A stretch of 64,000 nt of DNA, from NCBI RefSeq assembly GCF_055900595.2, contig NZ_CM148325.1; one strand, written 5' to 3'. This document shows positions 9,001-12,000 of this stretch, one piece after another; position 1 is the stretch's first letter, and each line of letters begins with the position of its first letter. Position numbers: made by a program.

Positions 9001-12000
9001 GTAATTGGCAAAGTTGAAGGTGAATATGCCCATGTTTATTCTGTCGATACCGATAATTTTGGCGACAGTATTGCGCTGACCGATGCATTAATTGAAAGTG
9101 GACATAAAAATATTGCCTGCCTACATGCTCCGCTTGATGTCCATGTTTCGGTTGACCGCGTTAATGGTTATAAGCAAAGTCTGGAAGATCATAATATTGC
9201 AGTGCGCAATGAGTGGATCGTTGACGGCGGTTATACCCATGAGACAGCACTGCAAGCCGCGCGGGAATTATTAAGCCAGTCACCGTTGCCTGAGGCAGTG
9301 TTTGCTACTGACAGCCTGAAATTAATGAGCATTTATCGTGCGGCGGCAGAGAAAAACATTGCTATTCCGCAGCAGTTAGCGGTGGTGGGTTATAGTAATG
9401 AAACGCTGTCGTTTATATTAACGCCTGCACCGGGCGGCATCGATGTTCCGACGCAGGAGTTAGGTCAACAAAGCTGCGAGTTATTATTCCGCTTAATTGC
9501 CGGAAAACCGTCACCACAAAATATTACCGTTGCCACGCATATGTCGTTGAAATAAATGCCAGCTACGTTGCCTGAATGCCGGATGCGATGCTGGCGCATC
9601 TTATCCGGCCTACATTTATAAACCGGATAAAGTACTCGCGCCGCATCCGGCAATTTAGCACATTATCAGAACGCGTAATTCACACCGACACCTGCATAAT
9701 GGAATTTATCGCTGTCGCCTTCATCGTGATCCTGCCACTCAAACGCGTATTCCAGCGAAACGGAAAGACCATTCTGGAAATCATAACCGTAAAACAAACC
9801 AAGACGGTTAAAATCATGGCCTTCACGTTCGATATCATCCTGCCAGTCCCAGTTACTCCAGCGATCCAACCCAATGCGCGTATACGGTGTTACCGAGTGA
9901 TTGCCGAGCGTCAGCGGTAAATAGGCGCGAATTTCTTGCGTGGAGAATTCACCGTTATTGCGGCTGTCGTCCATATTGAAGCCGCGCTCGAGATAATAGT
10001 TCACTCGCAAGGCAACCGTTTCGTTGAAGGTATATTGCAGACCCGTTTCCGTTTCGACACGGGTATCAGCATAACCGGTTGTATTCAGATCGTTGGCAAA
10101 TTTATACATCGACAGCCATCCGTTGAAACGTAAATCGTCAGTCAGTTTCACATCCCAGTCTGGCGCGATTTTCCAGCGCTGCATATTTGCCGTGTCTTTA
10201 CCCGGTTCATCAACATAGTGATAACCATAGTTACGGAAACCACCGGTCAGGCCGAAACTGAAATCATCGCTTTCGAGAAACTGATAATGCACTTCGAGTT
10301 CCGGGCGATCAAACCAGTTTCCACGTTTACCCGCGCTATAATCTACCGGCCCTTCCTGGTAATAAGCCAGCGATATTCTCCACGGCCCATTGGCAGCATT
10401 AAAATAGACGGAAGGCTCCGCCAGCCCGTCCATATCTTCGCCATAACCCTCGACGTTTTCTATTTCGTACATCGCGCCGATATTAAAGTGCCAGTCGTTT
10501 TTTTCCTCAGCCTGTGCGCAGGCCATTCCCGCACACATCACCAGTGCGGTACAGGGTAATAACTTTTTCATTATTGTTCCTTGTATTATCCTGGGGGAAT
10601 GCCTTCCCCCCTGTATTTAGCGAATTGCTATTTCCGTTTCTGCATCAAAGAAATGACATTTGGTCATATCAAAATGAATAGTGATATTTTCTCCTGCATG
10701 ATAATCATTTAACGCACCAGCACGGACCACTAACTCGTGCCCCCCAACCGTGGTGTAGAGCATAAATTCCGCACCGGTTAATTCTGCCACGCTAATTTTG
10801 GCGGAAATGTTATTTTCCTCTTGCGCATCCGGATGAATATCTTCCGGGCGTATTCCCATCACGATGGGCTTATGCAAGCTTTCCTGCGTTTTCAGAACCG
10901 CTAATTTATCTTCGGGAATGGTTAATTTAAGCGTTTCCGTAACGAATTTATCGCCATCGATCGTGCCGCGAATAAAATTCATTGCTGGTGACCCAATAAA
11001 GCCGGCAACAAACATATTCGCCGGTTGGTTATAGACCGTTTTCGGCGCACCGACCTGCTGAACAATCCCATCCTTCATAATGACAATCCGCGTCGCCATG
11101 GTCATCGCTTCGGTCTGATCGTGGGTCACGTAGATCATGGTGGTGTTCAGTTTCTGATGCAGCTTGCTGATTTCCGCGCGCATTTGTACGCGCAGCTTGG
11201 CATCCAGGTTAGAGAGCGGTTCATCCATTAAAAACACGCCCGCTTCGCGCACAATCGCCCGTCCAAGCGCCACACGCTGGCGTTGCCCGCCGGAAAGCGC
11301 ACCCGGCTTGCGTTTCAGGTACTCACGCAGGCCAAGGATTTGCGCCGCCCAGTTAACCCGCTCATCTATCACCTCTTTGGCGATTTTTTGCATCTTCAGG
11401 CCAAACGCCATGTTGTCGTAGACCGTCATATGCGGATACAGCGCGTAGTTCTGGAACACCATCGCAATATTGCGCGCTTTGGCCGGAACGTCGTTCATTC
11501 GTTTGCCGTCGATCAACAGATCGCCGCCGCTAATCTCCTCAAGCCCGGCAATCATACGCAGCGTCGTCGATTTACCACAGCCCGACGGGCCGACAAATAC
11601 AATGAACTCTTTATCGGCAATTTCCAGGTTGAAGTCCTTCACCACATGCACCTGGTTATCGTAGATTTTTTGAATATGTTGTAACGAAAGCTGTGCCATG
11701 TTGATTCCTTTGCTATACGTTTTGCCAGAAGGCCGATAACCGCGGCCAGGTCAGAGATTCCGTTGAGGGCAGCAACAGTTGCGCCCCGGTTAAGCTCGTG
11801 CCGATCCCCACCGAGCGCATACCGCTGGCGTTAATGGCGTCAATACCCGCCTGCGCATCTTCAATGCCAATGCAGGCCTGTGGAGGCACGCCCAGCCCTG
11901 CACAGGCGGCGAGAAAGATTTCCGGGTCCGGTTTCGAGTGTTTAAGTTGGGAAGCGTCCGCGCAGAAGGTGAAAAACTCGCGCAGCTCCAGCGCCGCTAA

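What the first reader, a model, noticed from the sequence alone, without database searches (positions are those of the whole stretch)
10617..11699. ycjV reads as an intact 360-aa ABC ATPase
As I remember the K-12 annotation, ycjV is a pseudogene truncated at the C-terminus. Here it is a full MalK-like protein with Walker A, the LSGGQ signature and the C-terminal regulatory domain. The strain therefore has an intact ATPase but damaged ycjT and ycjQ, a different decay pattern from K-12.
Basis: partly seen in the sequence, partly recalled or inferred. Interest (0 to 1): 0.3.

Follow-up and report, generated by a model that had tools for sequence, protein, structure and literature searches.

The report
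Intact ycjV sugar-transporter ATPase gene
This E. coli strain carries the normal, intact version of the sugar-importer ATPase gene ycjV, which lab strain K-12 has broken by a one-base deletion, while two neighbouring sugar-breakdown genes are broken instead; this is ordinary strain-to-strain gene decay.

Summary
Window 10617..11699 (- strand) is an uninterrupted 360-aa MalK/UgpC/MsmX-type ABC ATPase with every catalytic motif and the C-terminal OB/TOBE regulatory domain. MG1655 annotates ycjV (b1318) and ymjB (b4524) as adjacent pseudogenes. The lesion is one missing G in a G-run (G6 here, G5 in K-12; gene nt 955-960, codons 319-320), giving a 322-aa truncated product.

The intact allele is the E. 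coli norm. The exact G6 71-mer is in 4378 of 4995 locus-bearing complete genomes. The K-12 G5 allele is in 369, mostly lab K-12 derivatives. The window protein is 358/360 identical to WP_000057985.1, which has been purified and shown to be ATPase-active.

The "damaged ycjT and ycjQ" claim also holds. ycjQ has a +1 C frameshift (C6 to C7, window 18071-18077). ycjT is split at codon 123 by a 711-bp IS200 (14268..14978). Three sister genomes share the ycjQ frameshift but not the IS, so ycjQ broke first.

Nothing suggests ycjV is selectively retained: two random hits in the operon would miss it 84% of the time. Ordinary, already known, low interest.

The parts
10617..11699 (-). ycjV, intact 360-aa nucleotide-binding subunit of the YcjNOP-V sugar ABC importer
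   Evidence: ORF. Pfam ABC_tran+OB_MalK+TOBE_2. NCBIfam UgpC subfamily above cut-off. MsmX 6yir E=8e-149. 358/360 identical to WP_000057985.1.
10740..10745 (-). G6 run (CCCCCC on the + strand), gene nt 955-960, codons 319-320. This is the site of the K-12 one-base deletion (G5) that creates the ycjV'/ymjB pseudogene pair.
   Evidence: Alignment with K-12. Same G5 contraction in 08-00022 and 2014C-3051 on different allelic backgrounds. Allele counts 4378 G6 vs 369 G5.
11713..12372 (-). ycjU (pgmB), beta-phosphoglucomutase, intact
   Evidence: tblastn with the K-12 protein, 219/219 aa covered, 95.4% identity.
12389..12402 (-). Candidate YcjW operator TGGGACCGCTACCA, 17-30 nt upstream of the ycjU ATG, inside the 3' end of ycjT
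   Evidence: Exact 14-mer shared with the ycjM leader. Only two copies in the window and in the K-12 locus. Positions fit the two ChIP-seq peaks reported in PMC6599011.
12369..14267 (-). ycjT (kojibiose phosphorylase) 3' fragment, downstream of the IS
   Evidence: tblastn K-12 YcjT residues 117-755. Junction mapped against Z0117EC0005.
14268..14978 (-). 711-bp IS200 element inserted after ycjT nt 369 (codon 123), in the same orientation as ycjT. tnpA is 14377..14835. Left-end hairpin AACCCCCAGC-TAG-GCTGGGGGTT. Right-end hairpin CCTCCGGC-TAT-GCCGGAGG followed by a T-rich tail.
   Evidence: Absent from Z0117EC0005 and E200086 at this site. Pfam Y1_Tnp E=1.1e-36. 99.9% identical to IS200 copies elsewhere in sister genomes. 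Hairpin energies -19.0 and -17.0 kcal/mol. Right-end terminator-like site.
14979..15347 (-). ycjT 5' fragment (codons 1-123)
   Evidence: tblastn. Junction.
17214..18267 (-). ycjQ (D-guloside 3-dehydrogenase) pseudogene, 1054 nt instead of 1053
   Evidence: tblastn splits into frames -2 and -3 at residue 65. Frame-0 translation hits a stop at codon 75.
18071..18077 (-). C7 run (C6 in Z0117EC0005; CTCCGC in K-12). This is the +1 frameshift that inactivates ycjQ.
   Evidence: Alignments. The same allele is in E200086, 100117 and 100248, and RefSeq annotates it 'frameshifted' in E200086.
18298..21321 (-). ycjN (substrate-binding protein), ycjO and ycjP (permeases), intact partners of YcjV
   Evidence: Pfam SBP_bac_1 and BPD_transp_1 x2. 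Full-length tblastn at 98.6-100% aa identity to K-12.
23027..23040 (-). Candidate YcjW operator in the ycjM leader, 13-26 nt upstream of the ycjM ATG at 23014
   Evidence: PMC6599011.
9666..10571 (-). ompG, last gene of the operon, intact
   Evidence: Pfam Porin_OmpG E=3e-98. tblastn 301/301 aa.
8557..9555 (+). ycjW, LacI-family repressor of the operon, intact
   Evidence: Pfam LacI plus Peripla_BP domains. tblastn 332/332 aa.

Best explanation
The ORF is the ordinary, ancestral, majority allele of E. coli ycjV. It encodes the ATP-hydrolysing (nucleotide-binding) subunit of the CUT1-type sugar importer YcjN (binding protein) - YcjO/YcjP (permeases) - YcjV, within the YcjW-repressed ycjMNOPQRSTUV-ompG operon.

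By homology with MalK and MsmX, it should work as a homodimer. The N-terminal RecA-like and helical domains (Walker A, Q-loop, LSGGQ, Walker B, D-loop, H-loop) sandwich two ATP molecules and dock on the permeases. The C-terminal OB/TOBE domain holds the dimer together.

K-12 is the odd one out. A single G was lost from a G6 run at codons 319-320, removing the last 40 residues of that C-terminal domain.

The window's lineage has instead lost catabolic genes, in this order: first a +1 C slip in ycjQ (shared with three sister genomes), then an IS200 insertion in ycjT (this strain only). ycjV simply has not been hit. Whether it is still expressed depends on whether the second YcjW site, in front of ycjU, marks an internal promoter that bypasses the IS200 terminators.

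Shown: sequence intactness, domain and motif content, the K-12 lesion, allele frequencies, and the order of lesions. Inferred: the transport mechanism (by homology), the substrate, and expression in this strain.
For: - **Intact ORF and domains:**
- **K-12 pseudogene annotation and exact lesion:**
- **Strong purifying selection:** 46 synonymous vs 2 nonsynonymous differences from K-12, dN/dS = 0.011, so the gene was functional until recently in both lineages.
- **Allele frequencies:** exact G6 71-mer in 4378 of 4995 locus-bearing genomes, exact K-12 G5 70-mer in 369, mostly K-12 lab strains.
- **Near-identity to a tested protein:** 358/360 identical to WP_000057985.1, which equals the frame-repaired K-12 protein. 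That protein was purified and retains ATPase activity (PMC7658222).
- **Partner genes:** ycjN/O/P are intact and of the right families.
- **Operon and regulator:** PMC6599011.
- **Window lesions:** ycjQ +1C and ycjT::IS200. The window is collinear with Z0117EC0005 over 64 kb at 99.93-99.97% with no other indel.
- **Order of events:** E200086 has the ycjQ frameshift with ycjT and ycjV intact. No other genome has this IS junction.
- **No evidence of selective retention:** two random hits in the 12.6-kb operon miss ycjV with P = 0.84.
Against: - No expression or transport data exist for this strain.
- The IS200 lies upstream of ycjV in the same operon. It carries a left-end terminator described as bidirectional (PMC4513863) and a right-end terminator-like hairpin, so ycjV may be transcriptionally silent despite being intact.
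- The substrate of YcjNOP-V has not been established.
- The exact-70/71-mer counts are a proxy for the G-run state only, not for full-length intactness in every genome.
Confidence: 0.9

Rival explanations
1. ycjV is intact only on paper. The IS200 in ycjT is polar, through its terminators plus Rho-dependent polarity after premature translation stop. ycjU-ycjV-ompG are then no longer transcribed, and ycjV is a silent gene that has not yet picked up a lesion.
For: The IS is in the same orientation and upstream of ycjV in one operon (operon in PMC6599011). IS200 was discovered as a polar insertion and has a left-end terminator that blocks impinging transcription (PMC4513863). Stable hairpins sit at both ends, and the right-end one is followed by a T-rich tail. 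Both disruptive events that separate the window from Z0117EC0005 fall in the operon, which covers 20% of the window (P = 0.04 if random). This fits relaxed selection on the whole locus.
Against: A second exact YcjW operator lies 17-30 nt upstream of the ycjU ATG, where ChIP-seq shows a strong YcjW peak (PMC6599011). That suggests an internal regulated start downstream of the IS. The IS insertion is unique to this strain and probably recent, so lack of decay in ycjV says nothing either way. The simple terminator scan did not flag the left-end hairpin.
Confidence: 0.35
2. ycjV is kept by selection while ycjQ and ycjT decay. YcjV would still be needed either for the ycjM (glucosylglycerate) branch served by YcjNOP, or as a shared 'multitask' ATPase for other CUT1 importers, as MsmX is in Bacillus.
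For: The closest solved relative is the multitask ATPase MsmX (64% identity per PMC7658222). An unrelated strain, MB64, independently shows ycjQ frameshifted, ycjT::IS200 and ycjV intact. ycjM, ycjN, ycjO and ycjP are all intact here.
Against: With two lesions per operon, missing the 1083-bp ycjV by chance has P = 0.84 per strain, so two strains carry no statistical weight. YcjV lacks the charged residues proposed as the multitask signature and does not replace MsmX (PMC7658222). K-12 and at least two wild isolates have lost ycjV, so it is dispensable.
Confidence: 0.1
3. The G-run in ycjV is a contingency (phase-variable) site that switches the transporter on and off by slippage. K-12's state would then be one phase rather than a dead gene.
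For: The identical G6 to G5 contraction occurs on three allelic backgrounds: K-12, 08-00022 (5 substitutions from K-12) and 2014C-3051 (21 substitutions).
Against: A run of 6 is short for efficient slippage. About 88% of genomes are G6, and the G5 genomes are mostly one clonal lab lineage. The two wild cases could be homopolymer errors of long-read assemblies or recombination. No G7 or G4 alleles were looked for.
Confidence: 0.04

Closest known systems
E. coli YcjV, full-length allele (RefSeq WP_000057985.1; also WP_032302948.1, which is identical to the window protein)
   Same: Same gene, same locus, same length of 360 aa. The window DNA is 100% identical to the WP_032302948.1 gene in 8 genomes and 358/360 aa identical to WP_000057985.1, which was purified and is ATPase-active (PMC7658222).
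   Different: Two conservative substitutions relative to WP_000057985.1 (A232 for S, D264 for E), both in the C-terminal half and outside the catalytic motifs.
E. coli K-12 ycjV' / ymjB pseudogene pair (b1318 / b4524)
   Same: Orthologous locus with the same flanking genes ycjU and ompG. 95.5% DNA identity, with 46 of 48 substitutions synonymous.
   Different: K-12 lacks one G of the G6 run. Its product stops after 320 native residues plus TS, and the last 40 residues are encoded out of frame as ymjB. In K-12 ycjQ and ycjT are intact and named as characterized enzymes. Here it is the reverse.
Bacillus subtilis MsmX (PDB 6yir), multitask ATPase of several CUT1 sugar importers
   Same: Best solved-structure match, aligned over residues 1-360 at E=8e-149, with the same domain order. 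64% identity per PMC7658222.
   Different: YcjV is encoded inside its own transporter operon rather than as an orphan gene. It failed to energise AraNPQ and GanSPQ in B. subtilis, and it lacks the charged residues proposed as the multitask signature (PMC7658222).
E. coli MalK (PDB 1q12, 2r6g) and UgpC
   Same: Same family and architecture: NBD plus OB/TOBE regulatory domain. MalK E=9e-100. The UgpC subfamily model scores above its cut-off.
   Different: Below the MalK equivalog cut-off (430.8 vs 568 bits), so it is a paralogue and not MalK. 45% identity per PMC7658222. Nothing is known about regulatory partners of its C-terminal domain.

Membership tests
ABC transporter nucleotide-binding domain (Pfam PF00005) | Walker A, Q-loop, ABC signature LSGGQ, Walker B with catalytic Glu, D-loop and H-loop, all present and in order | tested here: met
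   GPSGCGKS 37-44, Q83, LSGGQ 135-139, VFLMDE 155-160, SNLD 163-166, H193. PF00005 E=1.3e-31, 110.5 bits vs cut-off 25.
MalK/UgpC/MsmX-type (CUT1) importer ATPases | C-terminal regulatory domain of about 120-130 residues with OB/TOBE fold following the NBD | tested here: met
   OB_MalK 236-288 (54.6 bits vs 27) and TOBE_2 282-351 (39.8 vs 21). End-to-end alignment with MsmX, MalK and AlgS structures.
MalK/UgpC/MsmX-type (CUT1) importer ATPases | Scores above a curated family cut-off | tested here: met
   NCBIfam NF008653 (UgpC subfamily) 484.9 bits vs cut-off 432. MalK equivalog NF008233 is not met, 430.8 vs 568.
MalK/UgpC/MsmX-type (CUT1) importer ATPases | Encoded with a family-1 solute-binding protein and two BPD_transp_1 permeases | tested here: met
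   YcjN SBP_bac_1 E=2.8e-44. YcjO and YcjP BPD_transp_1. All are full-length in the window.
MalK/UgpC/MsmX-type (CUT1) importer ATPases | ATP hydrolysis and energisation of substrate import | not testable with these tools
   ATPase activity is reported for the 99.4%-identical WP_000057985.1 (PMC7658222). Transport by YcjNOP-V has not been demonstrated, as far as the papers read here show.
E. coli ycjV orthologue | Same chromosomal position (between ycjU/pgmB and ompG) and high identity to K-12 ycjV | tested here: met
   Synteny pspE-ycjMNOPQRSTU-[ORF]-ompG-ycjW-ycjX. 95.5% DNA identity to K-12 ycjV/ymjB.
Multitask (shared) ATPases of the MsmX/MsiK/MsmK kind | Serves several importers, is typically an orphan gene, and carries the conserved charged residues (MsmX D77, R104, E110, K154) | tested here: not met
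   The gene lies inside its own transporter operon. PMC7658222 reports that these residues are replaced in YcjV and that it does not complement msmX. I did not re-derive the residue alignment myself.
IS200 (IS200/IS605 family), for the element in ycjT | About 707-711 bp, a single Y1 (HUH) transposase gene, sub-terminal hairpins, no terminal inverted repeats, no target-site duplication | tested here: met
   711 bp. Y1_Tnp E=1.1e-36. Hairpins at both ends. The junctions show no duplication. 99.9% identical to annotated IS200 copies.

The most novel reading that the evidence does not exclude
The catabolic genes ycjQ and ycjT are recurrent targets of inactivation in natural E. coli, seen here and independently in strain MB64 (different frameshift, different IS200 site 75 bp away). 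The transporter ATPase YcjV is meanwhile kept. This would imply either selection against the guloside/kojibiose branch or a second role for YcjV beyond this operon.
Probability: 0.08. Interest if true: 0.3.

Novelty: already known. Interest (0 to 1): 0.08.

Why it matters
It matters little in itself: this is the wild-type state of a gene that happens to be broken in the reference lab strain.

The practical point is a reminder that K-12 is a poor reference for the ycj sugar pathway, because its importer lacks an intact ATPase. This may contribute to K-12's reported failure to grow on kojibiose as sole carbon source (PMC6599011). That link is my inference and is untested.

Strains such as Z0117EC0005, with all twelve genes intact, would be better hosts for finding the pathway's true substrate. 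The window's own strain would not, since ycjQ and ycjT are dead.

Tried and rejected
- **Chance ORF or mis-called frame:** rejected, given full domain and motif content and 100% identity to annotated genes.
rejected.
- **K-12 lesion as a larger C-terminal deletion:** rejected. It is a single-base deletion, and the tail is still present out of frame.
- **ycjQ +1C as a private sequencing error of the window's assembly:** made unlikely, because three other assemblies carry the same C7 allele and RefSeq flags it as frameshifted. A systematic homopolymer error shared by sister assemblies cannot be fully excluded.
- **MB64 sharing the window's lesions by descent or recombination:** rejected. The IS200 site differs (after ycjT nt 444 vs nt 369), the ycjQ lesion differs (2-bp deletion at nt ~848 vs +1C at nt 191-197), and the flanks are only 91-93% identical.
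- **Selective retention of ycjV:** no support. Chance expectation is 0.84.
- **Raushel-lab kojibiose phosphorylase paper (PMC5953851):** I tried to read it for what it says about ycjV, but it is not held.
- **YcjW motif:** the text of PMC6599011 does not give it, so I recovered a candidate de novo.
- **Terminator scan:** the simple scan did not flag the IS200 left-end hairpin, so the claim that it terminates rests on the literature.
- **Genome-wide pseudogene census of the ycj operon:** not possible with these tools, because search outputs do not carry pseudogene flags at scale.
- **Tool hiccup:** two early script calls failed on a missing file and were repeated.
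Full report
**Observation.** Window 10617..11699 holds, on the minus strand, an ATG-to-stop ORF of 360 aa.
- Pfam finds ABC_tran (21-162), OB_MalK (236-288) and TOBE_2 (282-351), all above gathering score.
- NCBIfam puts it above the cut-off of the UgpC subfamily model and below that of the MalK equivalog.
- The catalytic motifs are all present: Walker A GPSGCGKS 37-44, Q-loop Q83, LSGGQ 135-139, Walker B VFLMDE 155-160, D-loop SNLD 163-166, H-loop H193.
- It aligns end to end with solved structures of MsmX (6yir, E=8e-149), AlgS and MalK.

So the description [quoted passage not shown] is accurate.

**Is the K-12 recollection right?** Yes. In NC_000913.3, ycjV (b1318, 1380821-1381789) and ymjB (b4524, 1381789-1381902) are both annotated as pseudogenes, between ycjU and ompG.
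- The two together span 1082 bp against 1083 bp here.
- Alignment shows one gap and 48 substitutions. The gap is a missing G in a G-run, GGTTGGGGGGCAC here and GGTT-GGGGGCAC in K-12.
- The run occupies gene nt 955-960 (codons 319-320), which is window 10740..10745.
- The K-12 reading frame gives 320 native residues, then Thr-Ser-stop. The remaining 40 residues are readable in another frame, and that is ymjB.
- Of the 48 substitutions, 46 are synonymous (dN/dS 0.011). The gene has therefore been under strong purifying selection, and the K-12 lesion is recent.

**How unusual is the intact allele?** Not at all.
- 4980 of 5426 complete E. coli genomes hold at least 80% of the gene.
- The exact 71-mer around the G6 run is in 4378 of 4995 genomes with the locus.
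- The exact K-12 70-mer with G5 is in 369, and the listed ones are overwhelmingly K-12 laboratory derivatives such as MG1655, DH5alpha, C600, J53 and ER strains.
- Two non-laboratory isolates, 2014C-3051 and 08-00022, also have G5 and are annotated "frameshifted". Their ycjV differs from K-12 at 21 and 5 sites. The same contraction has therefore either recurred or reflects homopolymer error.
- The frame-repaired K-12 protein equals RefSeq WP_000057985.1 exactly, and the window protein differs from it at two residues (A232/S, D264/E).
- That protein has been expressed and purified. It retains ATPase activity, is 64% identical to B. subtilis MsmX, and cannot replace MsmX in vivo (PMC7658222).
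- Metabolic engineers use the K-12 ycjV locus as an integration site alongside ygaY, yghX, ylbE and ilvG (PMC11731478). From my own knowledge, not checked here, these are K-12 pseudogenes.

Both the intact gene and the K-12 lesion are therefore established knowledge.

**The second half of the finding: ycjT and ycjQ.** The window is collinear with E. coli Z0117EC0005 (NZ_CP098223.1) over all 64 kb at 99.93-99.97% identity. There are only two length differences.
- *IS200 in ycjT.* A 711-bp insertion at window 14268..14978 splits ycjT after nt 369 (codon 123). It encodes a Y1 transposase (Pfam Y1_Tnp, E=1.1e-36), has sub-terminal hairpins and no target duplication, and is 99.9% identical to IS200 copies elsewhere in sister genomes. 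It is an IS200 in the same orientation as ycjT.
- *Frameshift in ycjQ.* One extra C in a C-run (C6 to C7, window 18071..18077, gene nt 191-197) shifts the ycjQ frame at codon ~65, with a stop at codon 75.

All other genes from pspE to ycjF are full-length. In K-12, ycjQ and ycjT are intact and named as characterized enzymes. The "different decay pattern" is real.

**Order of events.** The ycjQ C7 allele is shared by three genomes of the same lineage: E200086, 100117 and 100248.
- In E200086, RefSeq flags ycjQ as frameshifted, while ycjT (2268 nt) and ycjV (WP_032302948.1) are intact.
- The window aligns to E200086 without gaps apart from the IS.
- No complete genome has the window's IS junction.

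So ycjQ broke first in a sub-clade, and IS200 hit ycjT later in this strain only.

**Does the pattern mean anything?**
- Both disruptive events in the 64 kb fall in the 12.6-kb operon. This would happen by chance with P about 0.04, and it fits relaxed selection after the first hit.
- Two random hits in the operon would miss the 1083-bp ycjV 84% of the time, so there is no evidence that ycjV is being kept.
- An unrelated strain, MB64, shows the same qualitative picture. Its lesions are independent: IS200 after ycjT nt 444, a 2-bp deletion in ycjQ at nt ~848, and flanks only 91-93% identical. I record this as an anecdote, not a trend.

**How it most likely works.** By homology with MalK and MsmX (established family knowledge), YcjV is the homodimeric ATPase that docks on the permeases YcjO/YcjP and powers uptake of the sugar delivered by YcjN. 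All three partners are intact here and belong to the right families.
- The operon ycjMNOPQRSTUV-ompG is repressed by YcjW, and kojibiose releases YcjW from DNA in vitro (PMC6599011).
- Expression of ycjV in this strain is uncertain. IS200 was found as a polar insertion and carries a left-end terminator against impinging transcription (PMC4513863). The copy here has stable hairpins at both ends.
- Against full polarity, the exact 14-mer TGGGACCGCTACCA occurs only twice in the window. One copy is just upstream of the ycjM ATG (23027-23040). The other is 17-30 nt upstream of the ycjU ATG (12389-12402). The same two places carry it in K-12, matching the two YcjW ChIP-seq peaks. An internal, YcjW-controlled start in front of ycjU-ycjV-ompG would bypass the IS. 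This is inference and needs transcript mapping.

**Verdict.** This is the wild-type majority allele of a known gene, identical to an annotated RefSeq protein and near-identical to one already studied biochemically. The K-12 lesion is now located to the base. The strain-specific lesions in ycjQ and ycjT are routine pseudogenisation by homopolymer slippage and IS insertion. Novelty: already known. Interest: low.

Noticed in passing
window 2134..4230 (+), between tpx (1530..2033) and tyrR (4268..5836, -): An uninterrupted ~680-698-aa ORF with no Pfam-A and no PADLOC match and GC of 47.3% vs 51.4% for the window. It is found in only 32 of 5426 complete E. coli genomes, always annotated 'hypothetical protein', and in some it is split or hit by IS600. 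In the closest genome, Z0117EC0005, a G to T change at window 3406 makes a stop and splits it in two. It is a rare accessory gene of unknown function.
   Followed up: partly
L003 (E. coli MB64, NZ_CP073929.1) vs window 14268..14978 and 18071..18077: An unrelated poultry isolate independently has ycjQ frameshifted (2-bp deletion at nt ~848) and an IS200 in ycjT only 75 bp from the window's site. The IS is in the same orientation, both insertions follow a T-rich pentamer (TGATT vs TTGTT), and ycjV is intact. This may be an IS200 target preference in this stretch of ycjT, or coincidence.
   Followed up: partly
L005 (2014C-3051) and L006 (08-00022), ycjV G-run; window 10740..10745: The K-12-type G6 to G5 contraction is also present in two non-laboratory isolates whose ycjV differs from K-12 at 21 and 5 sites. 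This is either recurrent slippage or homopolymer assembly error.
   Followed up: partly
window 12389..12402 and 23027..23040 (-): An identical near-palindromic 14-mer, TGGGACCGCTACCA, occurs exactly twice: in the ycjM leader and just upstream of ycjU inside ycjT. It is conserved at the same places in K-12. These are probably the two YcjW operators seen by ChIP-seq (PMC6599011). The second hints at an internal promoter or roadblock for ycjU-ycjV-ompG.
   Followed up: partly
window ~41300..48800 (from the Z0117EC0005 annotation, L004 19022..26514): A cluster lies between fabI and sapF: a TetR/AcrR regulator, an RND adaptor, an RND permease, an outer-membrane factor and an MFS transporter. From memory, K-12 has only ycjD there. 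It is probably an accessory efflux island. This was not checked.
   Followed up: no
window 4529..27231 vs K-12 (L001): The whole puuE-tyrR stretch is only 93.9-94.7% identical in DNA to K-12. The window's ycjV allele is at least 99% identical in only 8 of about 5400 genomes, and the next best is 98.3%. The strain belongs to a rare, rather divergent E. coli lineage that includes human stool isolates from Mali and a dog isolate from Korea.
   Followed up: no
summary: In 416 of 5413 matching records, the best match to ycjV is only 60-80% identical. My guess, which I did not check, is that these are matches to the paralogues malK and ugpC. If so, roughly 8% of complete E. coli genomes lack ycjV altogether.
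   Followed up: no
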